Source: an uncultured virus (IMG/VR IMGVR_UViG_3300025413_000017)
Lineage: Duplodnaviria; Heunggongvirae; Uroviricota; Caudoviricetes
Length of the DNA stretch: 20,000 nt
IMG/VR virus record: IMGVR_UViG_3300025413_000017
Span: 54,654-74,653 of that record
Strand: one strand, 5' to 3'
Positions 11,695 through 20,000 of this stretch are shown in pieces. The position numbers and the translations under genes were made by a program. The first letter of the stretch is position 1; every line of letters begins with the position of its first letter. The notes under the pieces are model-generated. The model did no database searches. It saw only the letters and a program-made list of their open reading frames with translations, and was not told the DNA's origin.

Positions 11695-12501
11695 TTAATT
11701 ACCGAGGAATGTACGGTTTGCGTTAAGATTTGAATATGGTGTACTACCACTAGTAACAGTAACTGATTGATAACCACTAACTACTGTACCACTAACAATA
11801 GAAAGGTTTCTAACATTTTGAATACTCATTTGACCAATGTTACCGTTAGCATCAATAGCATTGTTACCAATACCCATTGCACTATAATCAACATACATAC
11901 CTGGAATGGCCCAGTTGACAATACCTGTACCACCACTAGCAGTAATGCGATAAGCTAGTTTTGGATTTTCAACTGTACTTAAAGTATTGTTTAGAGTAAA
12001 GGTTTGATTACCACTTGTAGTTGTAATGGTTCCAGTTGCAAGTGTATTCCAGTTGGTCGAGTTATAGTTGGTATTTTGATAGAATCTATCATTACTACCC
12101 TGTAGTTGGAAGAAGCAAGTTCCACTAAATCCAGCTGTAATCCAAAGATCTACATAAAGAGTTTCCATATCTTGAAGACTTACATTTGGTTCTGGGGCAC
12201 AAACATAACTTACATCAGTAACACCATTACCATTGACATTCAAGTTGAGTCCTGGTACTGCTGAACCAACTGTTCCGCCTTGCCACTTACCATTTACATT
12301 TTGTTGTGGCCAAGGTGGTGTAGCACCACTAACAACACTACTAGAGTTAACTGTAGTTGCTGTTCCTGTTACTGCATTATTTGGTCCAATACTAGTAACT
12401 GTATTGTAAGTATTGTCTCCATTACCATAAATAGTATTAAATTGACCTGTAGGCCAAACTTTTTTACTTTGTAATGGGCCTTTACCTTCTGCTGCCTGCA
12501 T
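11695..12501 (-). CDS. Putative virion structural beta-sandwich protein (268 aa)
   Basis: AGGAG RBS. Thr/Asn/Gly-rich, with a FQLQGSND...NW...YRI motif typical of small beta-sandwich virion proteins (recalled). Confidence 0.6.
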   Translation of the reverse strand: MQAAEGKGPLQSKKVWPTGQFNTIYGNGDNTYNTVTSIGPNNAVTGTATTVNSSSVVSGATPPWPQQNVNGKWQGGTVGSAVPGLNLNVNGNGVTDVSYVCAPEPNVSLQDMETLYVDLWITAGFSGTCFFQLQGSNDRFYQNTNYNSTNWNTLATGTITTTSGNQTFTLNNTLSTVENPKLAYRITASGGTGIVNWAIPGMYVDYSAMGIGNNAIDANGNIGQMSIQNVRNLSIVSGTVVSGYQSVTVTSGSTPYSNLNANRTFLGN

Positions 12502-12509
12502 ATTTGCTC

Positions 12510-13091
12510 CTAGAGACTTAAGTAGTCTACATCAATGTCATTTCCACCTGTTTCCTGCAAAAACTTTAAAGCATTACCTGAGAAGTCATCTAAAGTGAGT
12601 TCTTCATCTTGGGGTTGTTTCTCTTCCTCTACAATCCTAGGTCTTTCAACTTTTGGTGCAGGAGTAGGGACTGGGGCAGGAACCTGTACCTTGATATTTT
12701 CAATCTTGGTTTCTAGAGATTCTAGTTTTTGCAATACAGGTTCTAATGCTTTTTGTATTGCTTCTTCGACACTAATTTCAATGTCTTCTATCTCTAGTTG
12801 TTCTTCAGTTTCCTTGTGAACAAGTTTTTCTTTTAACAATTCAACCGCATTACTCCACAGAGTTGGTGTAACTTGGGAACCAGTAAGTCTTGCCAACTTA
12901 CCTGTGGAGTTGTCCCATTCAAAATCATATTCCCTGCCAGAATAGTCAGTAATTGTTCCATAAGTCATCCAACTTAAAGAACCCTCCACCACTATACTGT
13001 TTATCCCCACCAGATTTTGTTTCTTAGAATCTAGTGAAGCTTCAAGGATTGGAGTTTGACTCACAATCTTAGCTTTACGTGTTCTGAACAT
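12510..13091 (-). CDS. Hypothetical protein (193 aa; coiled coil plus Pro-rich linker)
   Basis: Clean ORF packed tightly between neighbours on the coding strand. Confidence 0.65.
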   Translation of the reverse strand: MFRTRKAKIVSQTPILEASLDSKKQNLVGINSIVVEGSLSWMTYGTITDYSGREYDFEWDNSTGKLARLTGSQVTPTLWSNAVELLKEKLVHKETEEQLEIEDIEISVEEAIQKALEPVLQKLESLETKIENIKVQVPAPVPTPAPKVERPRIVEEEKQPQDEELTLDDFSGNALKFLQETGGNDIDVDYLSL

Positions 13092-13093
13092 TT

Positions 13094-13600
13094 TTACTTC
13101 TTAACGACCAACTCGTAATCGTTCTTGCGTTCTACACTTGCAGTACGGTCATCCCAGATAACAGCAAATTCAGCGTCACCTAGTGCAACAACTGTTCCTG
13201 CAATCTTTGACTTTGAAGTCTCAGCATAAACACGACTACCAACAAGGGTGTCTGAGCTCAACTTAGCAAGTACACCGAATGTAGCATTCTTGTGAGCTTG
13301 GCGAGTGTTGAAACCCTTTGCTTGCTTTGAAGCCATAGTAGGCTGACCATATGGTGCAGTCTGTTGTGCTGGGTTAGTGTCGTCTCTTCCGTGAGCTTGA
13401 CCTGAAGCATTATCACGGTCAATTTCTGAAGCCCAATCACGTCGCCAGTCTTGCTCTACTTGCATATTGCGTTGAGCATCGTTGCTGTCTGCATCAATAA
13501 AGTCACCTGGTAGTTGTTCTCCTGGTGCAATAAAGTCTACATCAACTGGACTAGGACCTTCAAAAAGGTCTGCAATTTTAATATTTAACTTTGGTTCCAT
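13094..13600 (-). CDS. Hypothetical protein with C-terminal SH3/KOW-like domain (168 aa)
   Basis: C-terminal VGSRVYAE...GTVVALG...FAVIWDD...VE pattern. Purine-rich leader upstream. Confidence 0.6.
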   Translation of the reverse strand: MEPKLNIKIADLFEGPSPVDVDFIAPGEQLPGDFIDADSNDAQRNMQVEQDWRRDWASEIDRDNASGQAHGRDDTNPAQQTAPYGQPTMASKQAKGFNTRQAHKNATFGVLAKLSSDTLVGSRVYAETSKSKIAGTVVALGDAEFAVIWDDRTASVERKNDYELVVKK

Positions 13601-13666
13601 TTTCTTTCTCTTTCTTTAAAATAGAGATCTATTTGCTTATTTGATTTCTAAGGGGTTTTACATTTA

Positions 13667-15718
13667 TCATCTAGGAGGTTTAGCAGTACCATTTTCATTT
13701 AGATTACTAACCTCTGTTTCTGTTGCTGGATCTTCATCAAGCATTCCTTCTGCAGCCTTATGTTCCGGTAGCCCCATTGAACCAATTTGTTTAGTATTGC
13801 CAGGAGCTCCTTGATTTACAAGGTTTGAAGGTTTACTTGGAGTTTTAATACCAAGTTCTCTATTAACTCTTTTTGCACCAGGTTGGCTTCCCATACCCCA
13901 GTTGTAACTTCCTAAACTAATAAAATCTGCATCTACAACATTTGGTCCACCAAATTCAAACTTGAATCTATCAGCAAATGAGAATGGGTTGTCACAATCT
14001 TCATGAGCATATAATGGCCTTCCATCAGGTGCAACACTTGTTTGCACTATTGGACCTCTGCCATTAACATTACTAGCATCTTCACAGAATCTGCAAGAAG
14101 GTGTAGGTTCATATGATTCATTAACATGAGTATATGCAAGTTTATTACTTGTTTTTGGTTCTTCTTTATTAATAAGTTTTTTCAAAATACTCTCCTCTTG
14201 AGATTCTGGCTTTTCAGGAGTAAAGCCACGAACAAACCCTTCAGGTGCAGACTTAAGACCACCTTCACCAATTGTTGATGGATTTTCTAATTGGTCTACA
14301 ATAGATGCATAAGCAGGTAGTGTTCTATTCTTTGTGTGTTGTCTAAGTCCTAGTGGGTTTTTAAAATATGTTTGTCTTGAAAGTAATGCAGGTCTACTAC
14401 CTACAAGACTACCAAGTCCAGAAAAAATAGATTTTGCTTTTCCTTTACCTTGAACTTCAGAACTTGCATAAAATCCTGTGCTTGCTGAATCTGGTACGTG
14501 AATACATCTTGAAGCTGGTACAGTAATGCCACCTTGAAGACCTCTAAGTCCTGAAGTTGTCCACTCAGGGTTAGGTGCATTTAATGAATTAAAGTTAATT
14601 TGACTTCTGTGTCTTTTTTGAATTGTTTCTTGACTTGTTGAAACCCAAGGGATAACTTTGTATAGTGGTTCACCCTCATGAAAGCCACTAGTAACTGTAT
14701 TTTCTGGGATTGTGCAACCTGCTGCATGTTCACCACCACGACAATTATCATCGTGGAACTTAACAGGGCATCCTTCTTTGTGAGTTGTACCTTCACCACA
14801 TATTTCATGGTGTTTTGCAATTAATTCAGGAGAAAGACTCTTAACACCAATTTCTGCATTTCTAGGTGCTGTACCAACTACCAAACCTACGTTGTGGGCA
14901 CCCCTAGGAAGGCCTGGGATTGAACCATCATGATTAACAATTGTAACAACGTGACCAATTGGGTTTCTACCATGTTCATGACACTGTTCTCTTGGGTCAT
15001 GGTCAAATTGTGAAAACAATGGGTGGTGCTCTTCAGGCATTTCAGTAGGAGCAATTCTAATTGGCTTAGGATTCTTTTGTTCCTGATACCATTCATGCAT
15101 TTGGTCTCTAGAAATGCCTCTGTCTTCTGCCTCACTAGTAATCCAGTTTTCTTCTTCTTCTTTACTAATCCCTACAGGCAATCTTGTGGTGTCACCATTT
15201 GCACTTTGTTTAGTAGCACAAATACCATTCTTACCACATACACAACTTTCTGGGTGGTGAGAAGTTTTAATTTCATTTGTTTGATAAAAAAGACTTGTTG
15301 CTTCTTGATTATTAATTCGTTCTTCTTGTTTACGAAGTTTAAGTTCTTCTGGTTTACCTTTGAACTCACCCTTGTCTCTAATCATCCTAGAACGGTCAGT
15401 ATCAAACAACCAAGTTGGGACCGGTAACCTTTGAGTTAAACCATAAATTCTATTACGTTCTTCAGTTACTGAAGGGCCTTTTCCTGAACTTGAAGAACCG
15501 CCGGTTAAACTGTCTAACTCTTCAGGAAGCATTGGTCTTTTGGTCACATCACCTTGAGAAATAATTCTCTGTACCGGATCTTTTGACCTTCTTCCAGTTC
15601 CCCTACTTTTTGTTTCTTTAGCCTTTTGAATTAATGATGTTAAAAGTTCACTACTTGGGCCTTTTATTGCTTTATCAACAAGAGCAGGGTTAATGTTGGG
15701 TTTTCTTTGTCTAGGCAC
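13667..15718 (-). CDS. Large Cys/His-rich hypothetical protein (683 aa)
   Basis: GTG start overlaps the upstream TAG (TAGTG). Tandem H-x3-C motifs plus a CRFC...HEDC cluster. Confidence 0.75.
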   Translation of the reverse strand: MPRQRKPNINPALVDKAIKGPSSELLTSLIQKAKETKSRGTGRRSKDPVQRIISQGDVTKRPMLPEELDSLTGGSSSSGKGPSVTEERNRIYGLTQRLPVPTWLFDTDRSRMIRDKGEFKGKPEELKLRKQEERINNQEATSLFYQTNEIKTSHHPESCVCGKNGICATKQSANGDTTRLPVGISKEEEENWITSEAEDRGISRDQMHEWYQEQKNPKPIRIAPTEMPEEHHPLFSQFDHDPREQCHEHGRNPIGHVVTIVNHDGSIPGLPRGAHNVGLVVGTAPRNAEIGVKSLSPELIAKHHEICGEGTTHKEGCPVKFHDDNCRGGEHAAGCTIPENTVTSGFHEGEPLYKVIPWVSTSQETIQKRHRSQINFNSLNAPNPEWTTSGLRGLQGGITVPASRCIHVPDSASTGFYASSEVQGKGKAKSIFSGLGSLVGSRPALLSRQTYFKNPLGLRQHTKNRTLPAYASIVDQLENPSTIGEGGLKSAPEGFVRGFTPEKPESQEESILKKLINKEEPKTSNKLAYTHVNESYEPTPSCRFCEDASNVNGRGPIVQTSVAPDGRPLYAHEDCDNPFSFADRFKFEFGGPNVVDADFISLGSYNWGMGSQPGAKRVNRELGIKTPSKPSNLVNQGAPGNTKQIGSMGLPEHKAAEGMLDEDPATETEVSNLNENGTAKPPR

Positions 15719-16164
15719 TATTCCCCAGCCTTAGTTTTATTAATTATTCCCTTGATAAATTCAGAAGCAGCAGAATCTTGTTTTGGCCCAGTAGAAATAT
15801 TTCTTTCTTTCTTTTTTGGACCCATCATTTCTTTTTCTATATTATTGTTTTTTCTATAGTTTTCTTCAAGGCCACCAGGTGCTTCTGTTCTTACATTTCC
15901 TGCAGGTGAACCAAAAGCATGTGCATCTGACCATAGGTCATCAAGGTCATTTTCAACATATGGTAGGTGTGCTGTGCAAAGGGTAGTAAAAGAACCTGTA
16001 AGGTGTCTAGGGTCGGCAGCTACCAACTCATGACTACAAGGTACTTTATTCCCATTCTCATCAGAAAACAATCCTTGTGCGGAACAAGTATCGCCTATTT
16101 TAACCTGACCAGAAATGAGTCTATCGTTACCTCTAAGACTTCTAATAGAGGTTATAGTTCTCAT
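15718..16164 (-). CDS. Hypothetical protein (148 aa) with C/C/C/H metal-binding residues
   Basis: Tightly packed ORF with TCSA...PCSH...LCTAH. Confidence 0.65.
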   Translation of the reverse strand: MRTITSIRSLRGNDRLISGQVKIGDTCSAQGLFSDENGNKVPCSHELVAADPRHLTGSFTTLCTAHLPYVENDLDDLWSDAHAFGSPAGNVRTEAPGGLEENYRKNNNIEKEMMGPKKKERNISTGPKQDSAASEFIKGIINKTKAGE

Positions 16165-16172
16165 TCGTTAAA

Positions 16173-18599
16173 CTATTCTTTACCCAATAGCCTATTAACA
16201 ATGTCTGCACCAACTTGATTTTTTGTAGGTGCCTTAGGTGAAGGTGATGACTTGGCTCTTTCAATTTTTTCAGCACCGACTCTTGATTGTCTGTCTGCTT
16301 CAAAGCCTGCTAGCTTTTGGCGAAGTGCTTCACCAGTTGCCTTTATCTTGCCTACACCCTTAAGGAAACTAAAGGTAGGTGCATCACTTTCATTACCCCA
16401 TGCAACAGGGCGTAGTCTTGCGGTTACACCATTTCCTGCAGAAGTTCCATCAGCTAATCCACCTGTCATACCTTTTTGTGCATCAGTAGCATTGTACATA
16501 GGTGCCATTGTAGCAACAGGAAGTACACGACCACTACCGGCTTTTCCTTCTTGGCCTGGAACTACTTTAGCGTAGTTAGGGTTTGTCTTTTCTGAACCTG
16601 TTAAGTCACGAGGTCCGTTTTCTAGGATTTCCTTAACGTTTTCACCCTTACCACGGTTTCTTGCTACTTCATTTTCAAAGTGACCAAAGTCTGGAGTTGA
16701 AGGCCAAATTGTAAAGTTACTAACCTTACCAACACCGTGACTAGCTCCCATTTCAGTATTCATACCTGAACCAGATTGTGCAGATTCACGTCCTCTTTCA
16801 AAAGTTTCGATAGGCTTTCCACGACCTTCTTCTTCTCTCTTAAAAGCAGGAATACCTAGTTCTGGCACACCTTTTTCTGCAATTTGATTCATTACAGTTT
16901 CAATCTTGTCGTGATCTTCTTGAGGTAGAATGTGAACTCTGTGACTTGCAGCAAAAGTAGAACCTTCTTTTCTTCCACTAAGTTTTGGATAAAGACTTCC
17001 ATCAACACTCATTGCTGCTGTTTCTTGAATACCAATGTGACGGCCACCAAAAGCATCATCTGGTGAGTGAGTGCAACCTGGACTACCGTGGTGGGTGTGA
17101 CCAGTGCAAATCAATGGTGATGTTTCTGCATCTCCACCAAGTTGTGAACCACCAATACGACCCAAAGTAGCATCAATTACATTACCAGAAGAGTCATGCT
17201 TTGTAATCATTGCCCAACGGCCTGCTTTTGCTTCATCTTGCATTTCTGGGCGGTCTGCTCTTCTATCTGCATATTTAGCTGCAAGTGCTTTAGCAGTATC
17301 AGCCCCAAGTCCACTTGAAACTCTTGTAGTAGAAGTAGCACCTGGTACTGCATCATTGTGCATAGCAAAACCAAGTCTAACTTTTAGTCCTGCAATCTTT
17401 TCTTGAATTGAACCCTTTCTCTTCAAGTGCTTAGAACAAATGTCAAGGTGACCACGAACATCATCTGCTCTTTCACCCTCGTGAAGTGTTGCACCACACT
17501 CATCACACTTGGTGTCTTTTTTACCAGCGTGTGCTTCTACAGTTTTAGAAGACTTTCTTGGGATGAACTCACCACCAAGGGGACTGTGTCCAAATATAGT
17601 TTTGCAATCTTCACACCTAATAGGTGCTGGTCCTCCACGACTAGAGTGCATTTCTGCTCTACCACTACCACAATTTGGGCAGTTAAGAATACCTAACTCA
17701 GACTTGCAACCTGGGCAAATGTGGTTATTTTCATAATCAGGGTTATTTGCAGTGTCTGGGAAAGTTACATAGTTACTTGAGTCAGTCGGTTTTAAACATT
17801 CTTCACCTTCACCAAGATCCCCAAACCAGCCACACTTACCACTAAAGTTAGCAGTCTTAAGACTAGATTCTTTTAAATTATCAGTTTTAGAGGCAGTACG
17901 CCCATGTTCAGCACATCGGTCACTGTGGCTTTCTTGTACATCATTATTGCAACCAGGAGAAGAACATACAGAATATCTCTTGGTAGCATTAATAGCTGTA
18001 CGAAGAGCATCTTCATGGGCTTCATCACTATTAAAATGGTGGTGGCTTAACTCTACTTCATTAACCACTGCATCATTAAGTGGATAAAAGTTTTCATTTG
18101 GTCCCGTCTTAGCGTGACCACGAACTGCAGTTCTCCCATCTCCTGCAGTATATGTTAGCGTACCAATATGGGTTACTTTACCAATAGGTTCATGCAATCT
18201 ATAGGTACGAGATGAATAACTTTCTACACCAGGGCGGTCCTCAGAAAAACGATGCTCTGGAAGTTCTGTTGCTAATTCTTCAATACTAGATACTTTTAAA
18301 TTACCAGCTACATTGCACTGAGAGCAATTGGCGTGGCGAATCTTCCACTCTTCGTGAAGTGCTCTTACTAGTTTAAACTTGCTATCACTTACAGTTGCCA
18401 TCTTACGGCGAGCTGCACTCTCAATATCTGCTTCCATCATTTGGCAACGAAGTGCAAATTCTTTATCAGAGTGGGCAAGAAAAAGAAAATCTCCCGCCTT
18501 TGTTAGAACCTCATGCTTAGCGGTTACTAGATTCTTTCCGGCTGTCTTAGCATTGTAGACAGTATTAATTGAATCATCAAAATCAAAGACGGATGTCAT
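16173..18599 (-). CDS. Large multi-Zn-finger hypothetical protein (~808 aa), possible internal head protein
   Basis: Likely ATG 18599 (MTSVFDFDD) after ACAGGAG. Contains CSQC, CSSPGC...CAEH, CPGC, CPNC, CEDC, CDEC...CSKH and CTGH...CTH. Confidence 0.75.
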   Translation of the reverse strand: MTSVFDFDDSINTVYNAKTAGKNLVTAKHEVLTKAGDFLFLAHSDKEFALRCQMMEADIESAARRKMATVSDSKFKLVRALHEEWKIRHANCSQCNVAGNLKVSSIEELATELPEHRFSEDRPGVESYSSRTYRLHEPIGKVTHIGTLTYTAGDGRTAVRGHAKTGPNENFYPLNDAVVNEVELSHHHFNSDEAHEDALRTAINATKRYSVCSSPGCNNDVQESHSDRCAEHGRTASKTDNLKESSLKTANFSGKCGWFGDLGEGEECLKPTDSSNYVTFPDTANNPDYENNHICPGCKSELGILNCPNCGSGRAEMHSSRGGPAPIRCEDCKTIFGHSPLGGEFIPRKSSKTVEAHAGKKDTKCDECGATLHEGERADDVRGHLDICSKHLKRKGSIQEKIAGLKVRLGFAMHNDAVPGATSTTRVSSGLGADTAKALAAKYADRRADRPEMQDEAKAGRWAMITKHDSSGNVIDATLGRIGGSQLGGDAETSPLICTGHTHHGSPGCTHSPDDAFGGRHIGIQETAAMSVDGSLYPKLSGRKEGSTFAASHRVHILPQEDHDKIETVMNQIAEKGVPELGIPAFKREEEGRGKPIETFERGRESAQSGSGMNTEMGASHGVGKVSNFTIWPSTPDFGHFENEVARNRGKGENVKEILENGPRDLTGSEKTNPNYAKVVPGQEGKAGSGRVLPVATMAPMYNATDAQKGMTGGLADGTSAGNGVTARLRPVAWGNESDAPTFSFLKGVGKIKATGEALRQKLAGFEADRQSRVGAEKIERAKSSPSPKAPTKNQVGADIVNRLLGKE

Positions 18600-18715
18600 A
18601 TTGGGTCTGGCTCCTGTACTGTCCTCGGTATGAGGACGCTGAACTATACACATACTAAGTTTAAGAAACAGATTGTTTTAAATGTTTCTTTTCCAGATTT
18701 TTTAAGAATTAATAG

Positions 18716-18786
18716 TTCCGAAGCCTGGACTCGAACCAAGACTAAGAGATTCAAAGTCTCCTGTGCTGCCATTACACCACCTCGGA
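18716..18786 (-). tRNA. tRNA-Gln (anticodon TTG)
   Basis: TCCGAGG TG GTGT AATGGCA GCAC A GGAGA CT-TTG-AA TCTCT TAGT CTTGG TTCGAGT CCAGG CTTCGGA A. All four stems pair; U1-A72; CCA not encoded. Confidence 0.95.
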
Positions 18787-18787
18787 G

Positions 18788-18829
18788 TGGCTCCCCAGCC
18801 TGGACTCGAACCAGGAACCCGCTGATTAA
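18788..18829 (-). pseudogene. 3' half of an interrupted tRNA (probably Asn)
   Basis: TTAA TCAGC GGGTT CCTGG TTCGAGT CCAGG CTGGGGA G CCA. This gives the 3' anticodon strand, a perfect T-arm, the 3' acceptor strand, G73 and encoded CCA. It is complementary to the 5' half at 19452-19483. Confidence 0.9.
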
Positions 18830-18853
18830 ACGAATTACCATATGAGGAAATTG

Positions 18854-18925
18854 CTCCGCCCCCGGGACTCGAACCCAGATCTGACAAGTTAACAGCTTGT
18901 TGCATTGCCATTATGCTAGAGCGGA
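18854..18925 (-). tRNA. tRNA-Asn (anticodon GTT), intact, nested inside the interrupted tRNA
   Basis: TCCGCTC TA GCAT AATGGCA ATGC A ACAAG CT-GTT-AA CTTGT CAGAT CTGGG TTCGAGT CCCGG GGGCGGA G. All stems pair; U1-A72 and G73; followed by CAA rather than CCA. Confidence 0.95.
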
Positions 18926-19396
18926 AGGATTATTCTGTAAATACTTTTCTACAAATTCTTTTTTATTTTCGTACCACCCTAACTGTCTATTACAACTAGT
19001 ACAAAGTAAACCTCTAATTTTTCCTGTTTTATGGTCGTGGTCAATACTTAAATTTTTATGTACTGTAGAACCTATTTCTGATTTACAGATAGAACACTTT
19101 TTATCTTGAATTTTTAATAGTTTATAATAAATTTCTGGAGATTCATAGTTTATATTATTTTGTCTTAGTCTATCAACTATCCTTTTGCACTCATTACAAG
19201 AAAGTGAGTAATTTCTAGTTTCAGAGTTACACCATTTACAATTATAAATCTTAGGAGTACTTGGATTCCTTTTTACTCCTAGAGTAGAATGGCTTTGACA
19301 ACAGTATCTTTTGGACCCCTGCCTAATTTGGTAAGGGTACCTTAAAAAAGTATTATTGCAGCCCTCTAGTTCACAAACCCATAATGTAGATCTCAT
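18911..19396 (-). CDS. Endonuclease VII-family (His-Me finger) nuclease with N-terminal Zn fingers; putative free-standing homing endonuclease (~161 aa)
   Basis: The C-terminal QDKKCSIC...LSIDHDHKTGKIRGLLCTSCNRQLG is the EndoVII motif. The N-terminus has C-x4-C...CC-x2-H and CKWC...CNEC. ATG 19396 follows TAAGGT. The stop codon lies in the D-arm of the nested tRNA-Asn. Confidence 0.88.
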   Translation of the reverse strand: MRSTLWVCELEGCNNTFLRYPYQIRQGSKRYCCQSHSTLGVKRNPSTPKIYNCKWCNSETRNYSLSCNECKRIVDRLRQNNINYESPEIYYKLLKIQDKKCSICKSEIGSTVHKNLSIDHDHKTGKIRGLLCTSCNRQLGWYENKKEFVEKYLQNNPSALA

Positions 19397-19451
19397 ACTC
19401 AAACCTTAAATAGTAGATACCACTATAGTAGCTTTGACTTTGAGTTACATT

Positions 19452-19483
19452 GTCAGCTGCTCTGCCAATTGAGCTACCAGGGA
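19452..19483 (-). pseudogene. 5' half (nt 1-32) of an interrupted tRNA (probably Asn)
   Basis: TCCCTGG TA GCTC AATTGGCA GAGC A GCTGA C. This gives the acceptor 5' strand, a perfect D-arm, the 5' anticodon strand and C32, after which the sequence stops being tRNA-like. Confidence 0.9.
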
Positions 19484-19489
19484 ATAAAA

Positions 19490-20000
19490 CTATTTTCTGA
19501 TTACAAACAATAAGTCATCATATCGACCAAGATTTTCTCTTAGGTCAATACACTCTGTCTTATCTTTATACTCATCAGGAGTTGCATCTAGCAATATTGG
19601 GAACCAACTAGTGTCTTGAACGTCTTCTAGTACCATTACTCCACCTTCTTTTAGTTTAGGCAAGTAATATTCAATGCACTTTTTTAGAGTTTCAATAGTG
19701 TGAGGACCATCATCAATAATAATGTCATACTCACCCATTTGTTTTACAGCATCTGGGTTGTAGGCATCACAGATACCAATTCTTACTCTATCTAGGTCAC
19801 GATACTTGTGATTAATGTTATCAACAATGTCTAGGCCTGTAATCTGACCCTTAGTAAAATACTTACTCCATAGTGCAAGAGATGCCCCACCATAGATACC
19901 AATTTCTAGTAACTTAATTTCTTTGTCTTGGTATTTTTTAAACTCTTCATTATAGAATCCTTTAACAAAGTCATGTTCACCTTCGTAACCACCTTTATCG
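19490..20000 (-). CDS. Class I SAM-dependent methyltransferase, 5' end outside window
   Basis: The frame is open from the right edge: DKGG...H...Y...KLLEIGIYGGASLALWSKYF...ITGLDI...YDIIIDDGPH...LKEGGVMVLED. These are motif I and the DDGxH motif of sugar/small-molecule O-methyltransferases. The ORF track shows only the last 82 aa. Confidence 0.85.
   Translation of the reverse strand, partial: DKGGYEGEHDFVKGFYNEEFKKYQDKEIKLLEIGIYGGASLALWSKYFTKGQITGLDIVDNINHKYRDLDRVRIGICDAYNPDAVKQMGEYDIIIDDGPHTIETLKKCIEYYLPKLKEGGVMVLEDVQDTSWFPILLDATPDEYKDKTECIDLRENLGRYDDLLFVIRK

What the first reader, a model, noticed from the sequence alone, without database searches (positions are those of the whole stretch)
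18788..19483. tRNA split at its anticodon by a cassette carrying an EndoVII nuclease and its own replacement tRNA-Asn
Seen in sequence: the tRNA 5' half (19483-19452, ending ...GAGCA-GCTGA-C) and 3' half (18829-18788, TTAA-TCAGC...CTGGGGA-G-CCA) are mutually complementary. The acceptor TCCCTGG/CTGGGGA pairs with two G:U and the anticodon stem GCTGA/TCAGC is perfect. They are separated by ~622 bp holding an EndoVII-motif nuclease ORF and a complete tRNA-Asn(GUU) with different stems (acceptor TCCGCTC, anticodon stem ACAAG/CTTGT). Established: U1-A72 plus G73 are bacterial tRNA-Asn features. F-CphI of cyanophage S-PM2 is an EndoVII-domain free-standing homing endonuclease, and T4 SegB homes in a tRNA gene region without an intron. 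Inference: the broken tRNA was Asn, with a C-T-G-T-T-A-A loop whose nt 33-34 were lost at the insertion site. The cassette would be a non-splicing selfish element that cuts the anticodon arm of intact alleles, destroys the gene on insertion, and offsets the cost with a diverged, cleavage-resistant isoacceptor. I do not know of this nested 'destroy and replace' arrangement being described.
Basis: partly seen in the sequence, partly recalled or inferred. Interest (0 to 1): 0.93.

Follow-up and report, generated by a model that had tools for sequence, protein, structure and literature searches.

The report
Nuclease-plus-spare-tRNA cassette splitting a phage tRNA
A phage tRNA-Asn gene is cut in two at its anticodon loop by a selfish DNA cassette that carries a site-specific nuclease gene and its own working tRNA-Asn, so the element breaks a gene and brings the replacement with it.

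Summary
On the minus strand, a 32-nt 5' half (19483-19452) and a 39-nt 3' half (18829-18791) of one tRNA flank an Endo VII-motif nuclease ORF (19396-18911) and a complete tRNA-Asn(GUU) (18925-18854). The halves match an intact tRNA-Asn(GUU) in other viral contigs at 71 of 71 bases. One relative, L089, has the same neighbours (methyltransferase, tRNA-Asn, tRNA-Gln, large ORF) with no nuclease and no second tRNA-Asn.

The same insertion occurs in four independent contigs. In two of them the nuclease has diverged to 68-71% amino-acid identity, with dN/dS about 0.13. Two backbones that are 99.2% identical carry cassette alleles only about 79% identical, and the switch falls in the anticodon stem of the 5' half. 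The cassette is therefore exchanged horizontally.

The less decayed relative L095 shows the insertion followed A38 and duplicated TTAA. The window later lost TGTT. Rfam finds no intron.

My verdict: a free-standing F-CphI-type homing endonuclease cassette working by "destroy and replace". It is a new variant of known kinds: T4 SegB in tRNA clusters, and fungal mitochondrial mobile ORFs that carry replacement gene ends. Cleavage specificity and resistance of the nested tRNA remain untested.

The parts
19490..19999 (-). 3' part of a methyltransferase gene, the upstream neighbour, cut by the contig end
   Evidence: Pfam Methyltransf_24, E 6.2e-08. Its homologue in L089 (63% aa) directly precedes the intact tRNA-Asn. 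All 10 differences between the window and contig G001 lie here, at 19619-19997.
19484..19495 (-). 12-nt leader AAATAGTTTTAT upstream of the tRNA, part of the conserved left arm
   Evidence: 12/12 identical in L095 and L096, although the upstream gene differs there.
19452..19483 (-). 5' half of the resident tRNA-Asn(GUU), nt 1-32: acceptor strand, D arm, 5' anticodon stem, C32
   Evidence: 32/32 identical to the intact tRNA-Asn of L083, L084, L089 and L094.
19450..19451 (-). AA, the remnant of loop positions 37-38; TGTT (33-36) is deleted relative to L095
   Evidence: Alignment A2: L095 and L096 read GAC-TGTT-AATGTAA; the window reads GAC-AATGTAA.
19397..19449 (-). Left non-coding part of the cassette, with a hairpin (19439-19397) that covers the Shine-Dalgarno AAGG (19407-19404)
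   Evidence: Fold z-score -3.75. Consensus hairpin of 15 pairs across three alleles, with no double compensatory change. 45/55 identical to L095 (counted over 19451-19397).
18911..19396 (-). Homing endonuclease gene, 161 aa from the ATG: an N-terminal Cys-rich region and a C-terminal Endo VII (beta-beta-alpha-metal) catalytic domain
   Evidence: Pfam PF02945, E 3.3e-20. PDB hits: Hpy99I 2e-07 and T4 Endo VII 5e-06. CX2C, DHDH, R and CX2C-N are kept in the full-length family members; the truncated L084 remnant lacks the first CX2C and has I at the R position. dN/dS about 0.13 against L095.
18854..18925 (-). Nested complete tRNA-Asn(GUU). It has the same 7-nt loop as the broken gene but different stems. 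The nuclease stop codon lies in its D loop.
   Evidence: Rfam tRNA 59.4 bits; ARAGORN. 72/73 identical to L095 (ARAGORN span 18925-18853). It is the only tRNA-Asn in G000 and in the 84%-complete G001.
18830..18853 (-). 24-nt spacer between the nested tRNA and the 3' half
   Evidence: 1 substitution and 1 indel against L095 (counted over 18852-18830).
18791..18829 (-). 3' half of the resident tRNA-Asn, nt 35-73. It starts with the TTAA that is duplicated at the 5' junction in L095.
   Evidence: 39/39 identical to the intact gene in L083/L084. 36/36 to L095, as far as that contig reaches.
18715..18786 (-). tRNA-Gln(UUG), the downstream neighbour, 4 nt (CCAC) after the 3' half
   Evidence: ARAGORN and Rfam, 60.4 bits. 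The empty-site relative L089 also has tRNA-Gln, 3 nt after tRNA-Asn.

Best explanation
[quoted passage not shown] It carries an F-CphI-type Endo VII-motif nuclease gene fused at its 3' end to a second, sequence-diverged tRNA-Asn(GUU).

Shown:
- The resident gene is split and can no longer make a tRNA.
- The nested gene is the only tRNA-Asn left in the genome.
- Related phages have the uninterrupted gene at the same place.
- The nuclease is under purifying selection.
- Cassette alleles have moved between nearly identical backbones, with the crossover inside the tRNA arm.

Inferred:
- The nuclease makes a break in or near the anticodon arm of intact alleles during co-infection.
- Repair copies the cassette in, using the tRNA halves and the adjacent leader or tRNA-Gln as homology arms.
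- The insertion destroys the recognition site, and the nested tRNA escapes because both of its anticodon-stem strands differ at 4 of 5 positions.
- The first insertion was an illegitimate event after A38 that duplicated TTAA.
- The later lesions next to the junction (deletion of TGTT in the window; GCTGA to GCGCA in L096) are decay, or loss of a residual half-site.
- The nuclease is probably kept at a low dose by a hairpin over its ribosome-binding site, and by tRNA processing that would cut off its stop codon.
For: Anatomy.

Intact allele: the halves match the tRNA-Asn(GUU) of L083/L084 at 71/71 bases. The 27-mer of the 5' half occurs in 7 viral contigs: 1 split (the window's lineage), 5 with intact tRNA-Asn, and 1 tRNA-Thr.

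Syntenic empty site: L089 reads methyltransferase (63% aa), tRNA-Asn, tRNA-Gln, then the homologue of the 826-aa ORF (58% aa).

Same insertion elsewhere: G001 is 99.4% identical over 1700 nt. L095 and L096 have nucleases 71% and 68% identical to the window's.

Selection on the nuclease: dN 0.178 and dS 1.38 against L095. The catalytic motif is kept.

Horizontal exchange: L095 and L096 differ at 6 of about 743 nt upstream, then fall to about 79% identity (409/520) starting at the anticodon stem. The window and G001 show 10 mismatches in 19619-19997 and 0 in 12176-19618.

Arms kept pristine: leader plus halves are 80/80 identical between the window and L095, while the ORF is 351/471 identical.

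Sole tRNA-Asn.

The pattern recurs in the same nuclease family:
- L084/L083 have a truncated family member plus a tRNA-Ile(UAU) in place of the 5' ~50 nt of a resident tRNA-Ile(UAU). L094 has that tRNA intact.
- G002, L178 and L189 have a full-length member directly after a 26-nt tRNA 5' fragment.
- The L097 member overlaps tRNA-Pro.

Precedents: SegB cuts inside phage tRNA genes, its preferred site being in the T2L tRNA-Asn gene (PMC2330249, abstract and passages). F-CphI defines Endo VII-motif homing enzymes (PMC6083498, abstract and passages).
Against: No enzymology. The cleavage site, the specificity and the resistance of the nested tRNA are all inferred.

The nuclease is the only Endo VII-domain gene in G000 and G001. 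A housekeeping resolvase role is therefore not formally excluded.

No copy of the nuclease plus nested tRNA-Asn was found outside the split site, so the donor context is unknown.

Most Endo VII-domain relatives are not near tRNAs. Only 14 of the 160 loci fetched with the protein hold any tRNA. Of 8 loci whose match starts within the first 10 residues, 4 have tRNAs and 4 do not.

The perfect conservation of the halves could also mean they still have a function.

The hairpin shows no double compensatory change.

All relatives are uncultured contigs, and the host is unknown.
Confidence: 0.8

Rival explanations
1. The two halves are still functional parts of the element or of the tRNA operon. One possibility is that acceptor stem, D arm and T arm pair into a tRNA-like top half, which directs RNase P and 3' processing and so releases or doses the nuclease message and the flanking tRNA-Gln. 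Another is that they are kept only as homology arms. Their conservation would then reflect selection rather than recent invasion.
For: Leader plus halves are 80/80 identical between the window and L095. Synonymous sites of the nuclease between the same two are near saturation (dS 1.38), and backbone genes of the window's lineage and the lineage of L096, whose flank is 99.2% identical to L095's, have dS above 1.5. All lesions seen (deletion of TGTT; GCTGA to GCGCA) lie in the anticodon stem-loop, the part a top-half mimic would not need. The 24-nt spacer is also nearly unchanged.
Against: A demonstrated exchange boundary inside the arm already explains pristine arms, through repeated recombination with functional alleles. 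In the related Ile and Thr-like cases the leftover fragments are one-sided and cannot form a top half. There are no RNA data.
Confidence: 0.12
2. The insert is an intron (group I, or another spliced element) in the anticodon loop, and the tRNA is restored at the RNA level.
For: The position in a tRNA anticodon loop and the presence of an endonuclease ORF are classic for bacterial group I introns (PMC3984707, search listing and abstract only). In L095 the flanks CTGTTAA and TCAGC would give a correct tRNA if joined exactly.
Against: No intron family was found at E<=10 in the window or in L095. Only 55 + 24 nt is neither ORF nor tRNA, too little for a ribozyme core. In the window TGTT is missing, and in L096 the stem is mutated, so 2 of 3 alleles cannot regenerate the tRNA. 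No junction choice gives a 5' exon ending in U together with an intron ending in G (read from the sequence). A nested tRNA would be cut out by RNase P.
Confidence: 0.02
3. The ORF is the phage's ordinary Holliday-junction resolvase (a T4 gp49 analogue) that merely happens to lie in a rearranged tRNA cluster. The split tRNA is then a by-product of recombination, not of homing.
For: It is the only Endo VII-domain gene in G000 (46% complete) and G001 (84% complete). PHROG families name it endonuclease VII.
Against: The catalytic domain is C-terminal and the protein ends about 16 residues after it. The PDB alignment covers only T4 Endo VII residues 14-71, so the C-terminal domain of the T4 enzyme is absent. 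This is the F-CphI architecture (PMC6083498). No Endo VII domain was found in relatives G004 and G005, though these are only 36% and 50% complete. G003 (19% complete) holds only the truncated remnant, and G002 holds that remnant plus one full-length family member. The gene is absent from the syntenic site in L089. Alleles are swapped on identical backbones.
Confidence: 0.05
4. Assembly artefact or chimera.
Against: Four independently assembled contigs carry the same junctions: G000, G001, L095 and L096. Two of them have substantially diverged sequence.
Confidence: 0.01

Closest known systems
T4 SegB, a GIY-YIG homing endonuclease in the T4 tRNA gene cluster (PMC2330249; PMC13096335)
   Same: It is a free-standing nuclease gene inside a phage tRNA array, and it cuts inside tRNA genes. 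Its preferred site lies entirely within the T2L tRNA-Asn gene. It drives inheritance of itself together with neighbouring tRNA genes. The end of its ORF abuts a tRNA, and processing of that tRNA was proposed to cut between its last codon and its stop codon. A hairpin over the translation start was also proposed there (abstract and discussion passages). SegB homologues widely co-localise with tRNAs.
   Different: The nuclease fold differs: GIY-YIG, not Endo VII/beta-beta-alpha-metal. SegB recognises the T-psi-C region and sits between tRNA genes, not inside one. No same-isotype tRNA nested within a broken target was reported in the passages I read.
F-CphI of cyanophage S-PM2, the Endo VII-motif homing endonuclease family (PMC6083498)
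   Same: Same catalytic motif (CX2-4C, DHDH, R, CX2C-N) and the same architecture, with the catalytic domain at the C-terminus. It is free-standing in a phage genome. Hpy99I is the best structural relative in both cases.
   Different: F-CphI lies beside its target gene (psbA) rather than inside it, and it carries no replacement gene. The N-terminal Cys-rich region here matches no Pfam family.
Mobile endonuclease ORFs (mORFs) that create 'gene hybrids' in fungal mitochondria: Allomyces atp6; Glomus atp6, atp9, cox2, nad3 (PMC3630166)
   Same: Same logic. An endonuclease ORF enters a resident gene together with a diverged foreign copy of the part it displaces. The native displaced part stays downstream as a remnant that is still very similar to the gene of close relatives (passages).
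   Different: Those elements replace only the C-terminal end of protein-coding genes, in frame. They are mitochondrial, and one inserted ORF is described as LAGLIDADG. Here a whole tRNA gene is carried, both halves of the target remain, the host is a phage, and the nuclease has the Endo VII motif.
Group I introns with homing endonuclease ORFs in bacterial tRNA anticodon loops (PMC3984707, listing and abstract only)
   Same: Insertion in a tRNA anticodon loop, and an endonuclease ORF inside the insert.
   Different: No ribozyme was detected and none has room to exist, and no splice can restore the loop in the window. The cost is offset by a spare gene, not by splicing.
Free-standing nuclease genes that split phage protein genes, such as mobE in Aeromonas phage Aeh1 nrdA (recalled from memory; only a mention of Aeh1 MobE was seen)
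   Same: A free-standing homing endonuclease gene inserted inside a gene, leaving two pieces.
   Different: There the two protein pieces reassemble into a working enzyme. Here the pieces lack the anticodon and a separate whole copy does the work.

Membership tests
Endo VII-motif (F-CphI-type) homing endonucleases | Catalytic motif: central DHDH flanked by an N-terminal CX2-4C and a C-terminal CX2C, with a conserved R after DHDH and an N after CX2C (definition from PMC6083498, passages) | tested here: met
   Sequence KKCSIC...IDHDHKTGKIRGLLCTSCN. Pfam PF02945, E 3.3e-20, 72.2 bits against a cut-off of 23.6. D119, H120, D121, H122, C132, C135 and N136 are invariant across the five aligned members; the first CX2C and the R are kept in the four full-length ones.
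Endo VII-motif (F-CphI-type) homing endonucleases | Catalytic domain at the C-terminus, without the C-terminal domain of the T4 resolvase | tested here: met
   The domain spans residues 83-156 of 163. The alignment to T4 Endo VII covers only its residues 14-71.
Endo VII-motif (F-CphI-type) homing endonucleases | Present or absent at one conserved site among related genomes | tested here: met
   Filled: G000, G001, L095, L096. Empty with the same flanks: L089. Intact tRNA-Asn in a syntenic tRNA cluster without this cassette: L083/L084 and L094.
Endo VII-motif (F-CphI-type) homing endonucleases | Sequence-specific double-strand cleavage of the allele that lacks the gene, and biased inheritance | not testable with these tools
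Indirect support only: exchange boundaries at the cassette edge.
Group I intron in a tRNA anticodon loop | Ribozyme core detectable by covariance model | tested here: not met
   No Intron_gpI or other intron family at E<=10 in window 18500-19700 or in L095.
Group I intron in a tRNA anticodon loop | Exons that can be joined to give a functional anticodon loop | tested here: not met
   The window lacks TGTT and L096 has a mutated 5' stem strand. Only L095 could in principle give the right product.
T4 SegB-type (GIY-YIG) tRNA-cluster homing endonuclease | GIY-YIG catalytic domain | tested here: not met
   The only Pfam hit is Endonuclease_7. It works like SegB but is not a member.
Mitochondrial mORF 'gene hybrid' elements | An endonuclease ORF inserted in the target gene, with a diverged replacement copy, and the native remnant still like that of relatives | tested here: met
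   The nested tRNA differs from the resident one in both anticodon-stem strands and in the acceptor stem, while the remnants are 71/71 identical to the intact gene of relatives.
Mitochondrial mORF 'gene hybrid' elements | Mitochondrial location, an in-frame C-terminal replacement of a protein gene, and a LAGLIDADG-type ORF (as described for Glomus atp6) | tested here: not met
   Phage contig with portal and major head protein genes, a tRNA target, and an Endo VII-motif nuclease.
Holliday-junction resolvase (T4 gp49 type) | N-terminal catalytic domain plus a C-terminal domain, and a conserved single-copy gene across related phages | tested here: not met
   The architecture is reversed. No match in G004 or G005, and only a truncated remnant in G003, but those records are 19-50% complete.

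The most novel reading that the evidence does not exclude
The broken halves are not junk, and this nuclease family is a dedicated tRNA-gene swapping system.

The halves stay base-perfect (80/80 with the leader) while synonymous sites of the nuclease saturate. The proposed reason is that the element needs them, as homology arms and as a tRNA-like top half that lets the host's tRNA-processing enzymes cut the nuclease message out of the tRNA operon and set its dose.

Across phages, Zn-ribbon plus Endo VII cassettes, each welded to a tRNA, overwrite resident tRNA genes with foreign alleles. Cases seen here: Asn and Ile(UAU), plus two members that sit directly upstream of tRNA-Pro, one of them next to a Thr-like tRNA fragment. 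This would drive turnover of phage tRNA sequences, which could also let phages escape host nucleases that attack tRNA anticodon arms.
Probability: 0.2. Interest if true: 0.85.

Novelty: new variant of a known kind. Interest (0 to 1): 0.68.

Why it matters
Homing endonuclease genes are usually tolerated inside useful genes because an intron or intein removes them after transcription or translation. Here a third solution appears in a phage: the element carries a complete spare copy of the gene it breaks.

This gives a clean natural example with all states preserved: an empty site, a fresh-looking insertion, decayed junctions and swapped alleles. It extends the link between phage tRNA arrays and homing endonucleases from the GIY-YIG enzyme SegB to the Endo VII-motif family. 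It also suggests that phage tRNA genes are replaced allele by allele by selfish elements.

That bears on two open matters: why phage tRNA sets vary so much, and how tRNA variants that resist host defences might spread. The enzyme is also a candidate site-specific nuclease with a short, well-defined natural target that can be tested directly.

Tried and rejected
Group I or other intron: Rfam at E<=10 on the window and on L095 gave only tRNAs and noise.

Archaeal-type bulge-helix-bulge splice motif and terminal inverted repeats at the cassette ends: checked by eye on the junction sequences; none found.

GenBank phage collection, blastn of 1.7 kb: 25 records, all short matches of at most 8% coverage, mostly generic tRNA similarity; no relative.

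Relatives through the 826-aa neighbour: only the sister contig.

Donor context of the nested tRNA-Asn: an exact 25-mer occurs only in the window's own lineage.

Full-length version of the Ile cassette: an exact 23-mer of its tRNA occurs only in the same two contigs.

Host clue: the intact-allele 30-mer occurs in one of the species-representative genomes, an Actinomycetes MAG contig. Not pursued.

N-terminal domain of the nuclease: no Pfam family at E<=10 worth naming.

Promoter and terminator scan: 8 weak promoter-like sites against 3.5 expected, and no terminator. Nothing decisive.

General link between Endo VII relatives and tRNAs: weak. 14 of 160 loci hold a tRNA.

Orphan T-arm scan of those 160 loci: 12 hits. 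Two are the known 3' halves (L003, L095), and the rest were not clearly split tRNAs.

Earlier notes of this scan: none for this genome.

Full report
**What is there**

The window is the last 20 kb of a 74.6-kb IMG/VR phage record, rated 46% complete. It carries portal and major head protein genes.

Read on the minus strand, the region runs as follows:
- the end of a methyltransferase gene (stop at 19492-19490);
- a 12-nt leader;
- TCCCTGGTAGCTCAATTGGCAGAGCAGCTGAC (19483-19452);
- AA;
- a 53-nt non-coding stretch;
- an ORF from the ATG at 19396 to the stop at 18911;
- a tRNA-Asn(GUU) at 18925-18854 that overlaps the last five codons and the stop of the ORF;
- a 24-nt spacer;
- TTAATCAGC...CTGGGGAG (18829-18791);
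- CCAC;
- tRNA-Gln(UUG) (18786-18715);
- an 826-aa ORF.

ARAGORN and Rfam call only the nested tRNA-Asn and tRNA-Gln. The ORF has a Pfam Endonuclease_7 domain at residues 83-156 of 163 (E 3.3e-20, 72.2 bits, cut-off 23.6).

**The halves belong to a real tRNA-Asn gene, and empty sites exist**

A gapped pattern built from both arms found uninterrupted copies in viral contigs. In L083 and L084 these are tRNA-Asn(GUU) genes with the loop CTGTTAA. The window's halves match them at 32/32 and 39/39 bases.

The 27-mer of the 5' half occurs in seven viral contigs:
- one is the split form in the window's own lineage;
- five are intact tRNA-Asn genes (L089, L090, L092, L093, L094);
- one is a tRNA-Thr (L091).

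It reads a complete homologous methyltransferase (63% aa), then tRNA-Asn(GUU) 5 nt later, then tRNA-Gln 3 nt later, then the N-terminus of the 826-aa homologue (58% aa). It has no nuclease and no second tRNA-Asn.

L083/L084 and L094 are more distant but still syntenic relatives: papain-like 179-189-aa gene, small gene, membrane protein, tRNA cluster, homologue of the large ORF.

**It is not an artefact, and it is old**

A 133-kb contig from another sample (G001, 84% complete) has the identical structure, 99.4% identical over 1700 nt.

The metagenome scan with the nuclease protein returned 80 loci. Three of them have clear full-length relatives: L095 (71% aa), L096 (68%) and L097 (40%). Two weaker matches (L108 and L112, 32-33%) also start near the N-terminus.

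L095 and L096 carry the same cassette in the same tRNA-Asn, behind a different upstream gene.

L095 keeps the whole loop at the left junction (GCTGA-CTGTTAA|TGTAAC...). Its right junction reads ...TTCGT-TTAA-TCAGC. So the original insertion lay after A38 and duplicated TTAA (nt 35-38).

The window, and G001 with it, differs from L095 by a 4-nt deletion of TGTT. The AA after C32 is therefore A37-A38. L096 has instead two substitutions in the 5' stem strand (GCTGA to GCGCA).

**It is not an intron**

Rfam at E<=10 finds no intron family in the window or in L095. Only 55 + 24 nt of the insert is neither ORF nor tRNA. In two of the three alleles, no join of the flanks can restore the anticodon stem-loop. 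A nested tRNA would also be excised by RNase P.

**The nuclease is a maintained, F-CphI-type enzyme**

Its best solved relatives are the restriction enzyme Hpy99I (E 2e-07) and T4 endonuclease VII (5e-06). The alignment to the latter covers only its catalytic residues 14-71.

The motif that defines the Endo VII-motif homing family is CX2-4C, DHDH, R, CX2C-N, placed C-terminally (PMC6083498, abstract and passages). It is present here and conserved in the full-length family members. The N-terminal 80 residues hold two Cys-rich motifs and match no Pfam family.

Divergence between alleles:

| Pair | dN | dS |
|---|---|---|
| window vs L095 | 0.178 | 1.38 |
| L095 vs L096 | 0.149 | 1.41 |

The ORF has therefore been under purifying selection for a long time.

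**The cassette moves**

L095 and L096 differ at 6 of about 743 nt upstream (99.2% identity). From the anticodon stem of the 5' half onwards, identity drops to 409/520, with some 50-nt windows as low as 31/50. Two almost identical backbones thus carry old, different cassette alleles, with the switch inside the tRNA arm.

Similarly, the window and G001 show 10 mismatches within 19619-19997 (in the methyltransferase gene) and none in the 7,443 nt from 19618 down to 12176.

Identity between the window and L095, by segment:

| Segment | Identity |
|---|---|
| Leader + both halves | 80/80 |
| Nested tRNA | 72/73 |
| Spacer | 22/23, plus one indel |
| 5' UTR | 45/55 |
| Nuclease ORF | 351/471 |

Backbone genes of the window's lineage and the L096 lineage, whose flank is 99.2% identical to L095's, have saturated synonymous sites: the 179-aa gene is 71% aa identical with dS 2.2. 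Dead halves inherited vertically should therefore have decayed.

The simplest reading is that the arms are repeatedly renewed by recombination with functional alleles during homing, and that only mutations next to the junction persist. A direct function for the halves is the main rival, and I cannot exclude it.

**Replacement**

The nested gene is the only tRNA-Asn in G000, which has 5 tRNAs. It is also the only one among the 7 tRNA matches of G001, where the seventh is an 87-nt, long-arm type.

It shares the 7-nt loop with the broken gene. Each anticodon-stem strand differs at 4 of 5 positions (ACAAG/CTTGT against GCTGA/TCAGC), and the acceptor stem and D arm differ too. Resistance to the nuclease is thus plausible, but it is an inference.

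**The pattern recurs in this nuclease family**

- In L084/L083, the intact tRNA-Asn is followed by a conserved ~90-nt structured RNA. After that comes a truncated family member (C-terminal 80 aa, 57% identical over 44 aa) whose end overlaps a tRNA-Ile(UAU). Then comes the 3' part of another tRNA-Ile(UAU). L094 has that second tRNA-Ile intact and no nuclease.
- In G002, L178 and L189, a full-length member (161 aa) directly follows a 26-nt tRNA 5' fragment. The fragment is identical to the start of tRNA-Thr(UGU) genes elsewhere. tRNA-Pro follows 73 nt after the ORF.
- In L097, the ORF overlaps tRNA-Pro by 7 nt.

The wider Endo VII family is not generally tied to tRNAs. Only 14 of the 160 loci hold any tRNA. 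Of the 8 loci whose match starts in the first 10 residues, 4 have tRNAs and 4 do not.

**Expression (inferred)**

No terminator and no convincing promoter lie in 18600-19700. The cassette is therefore probably read through as part of the tRNA operon.

A hairpin at 19439-19397 covers the Shine-Dalgarno sequence (z-score -3.75; it is conserved in three alleles but shows no double compensatory change).

RNase P cleavage at the nested tRNA would remove the nuclease's stop codon. Both devices were proposed for T4 segB (PMC2330249, discussion passages).

**Comparison with what is known**

- *T4 SegB.* It works like this enzyme. SegB is a GIY-YIG nuclease in the T4 tRNA cluster. Its preferred 27-bp site lies within the T2L tRNA-Asn gene, and it spreads itself together with neighbouring tRNA genes (PMC2330249, abstract and passages). 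SegB-tRNA co-localisation is widespread (PMC13096335, passages).
- *F-CphI.* By motif and architecture, the nuclease here belongs with this family (PMC6083498).
- *Fungal mitochondrial mobile ORFs.* The destroy-and-replace logic has a precedent here. These ORFs bring a foreign C-terminal gene end and leave the native end as a remnant (PMC3630166, passages).

New here:
- a whole tRNA gene nested inside the anticodon loop of the same-isotype gene it replaces;
- a phage setting and the Endo VII-motif family;
- arms kept base-perfect;
- all intermediate states available for comparison.

Full-text searches returned no paper for 'homing endonuclease' + 'tRNA' + 'phage' + 'split tRNA'. The 'tRNA pseudogene' variant of that search returned one paper, on T4-like phages, which I did not open. 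This covers only the held open-access library.

**Verdict**

The enzymatic steps are untested. I classify it as a new variant of a known kind, of good but not exceptional interest.

Noticed in passing
L084:1555-1650 (also L083:1383-1477 minus, L094:1365-1459 minus): A conserved ~90-nt structured RNA lies directly after the intact tRNA-Asn. The consensus fold has 27 pairs, 2 of them with compensatory double changes, at -29.7 kcal/mol. Rfam gave no match at E<=1 in L083 or L084 (L094 was not scanned).
   Followed up: partly
L084:1613-1960 (and the L083 equivalent), compared with L094: This is a second destroy-and-replace case. A truncated Endo VII family gene plus a tRNA-Ile(UAU) stands where the 5' ~50 nt of a resident tRNA-Ile(UAU) should be. 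The 3' part of that resident tRNA and its downstream flank remain. L094 has the resident gene intact and no nuclease.
   Followed up: yes
L177:1487-2040 minus (record G002); same in L178 and L189: A full-length member of the same nuclease family directly follows a 26-nt tRNA 5' fragment, identical to the start of tRNA-Thr(UGU) genes in other contigs. It precedes tRNA-Pro, Tyr, Leu and Leu. A classical HNH ORF (L177 985-536) sits at the other end of the same array.
   Followed up: partly
window 19619-19997 versus 12176-19618: All 10 differences between the window and the sister contig G001 lie in 379 nt of the methyltransferase gene, just upstream of the cassette. The next 7,443 nt are identical. 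This marks a genetic-exchange boundary next to the nuclease gene.
   Followed up: partly
L087 (Actinomycetes MAG contig), 283-355: A bacterial-bin contig has a tRNA-Asn identical to the phage's resident allele from nt 8 to 48. It was the only hit for the 30-mer among the species-representative genomes. It may be a clue to the host, and it means the nuclease could also see the host gene.
   Followed up: no
L136:2250-2625: About 400 nt after another Endo VII-domain gene lies an orphan T arm plus acceptor end, GGGTTCGATTCCCGTCGTCTCCACCA. It looks like the 3' end of a tmRNA rather than a tRNA fragment.
   Followed up: no
window 18911-18925: The last five codons and the stop codon of the nuclease ORF lie inside the nested tRNA: the TAA is in the D loop. 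The same kind of ORF/tRNA overlap occurs in L097 (7 nt, tRNA-Pro) and in the L084 remnant (tRNA-Ile).
   Followed up: partly
window 16173-18653 minus: The 826-aa ORF after the tRNA cluster matches no Pfam or PHROG family. Only its N-terminal ~120 residues are conserved in relatives (45-58% aa in L089 and L084).
   Followed up: no
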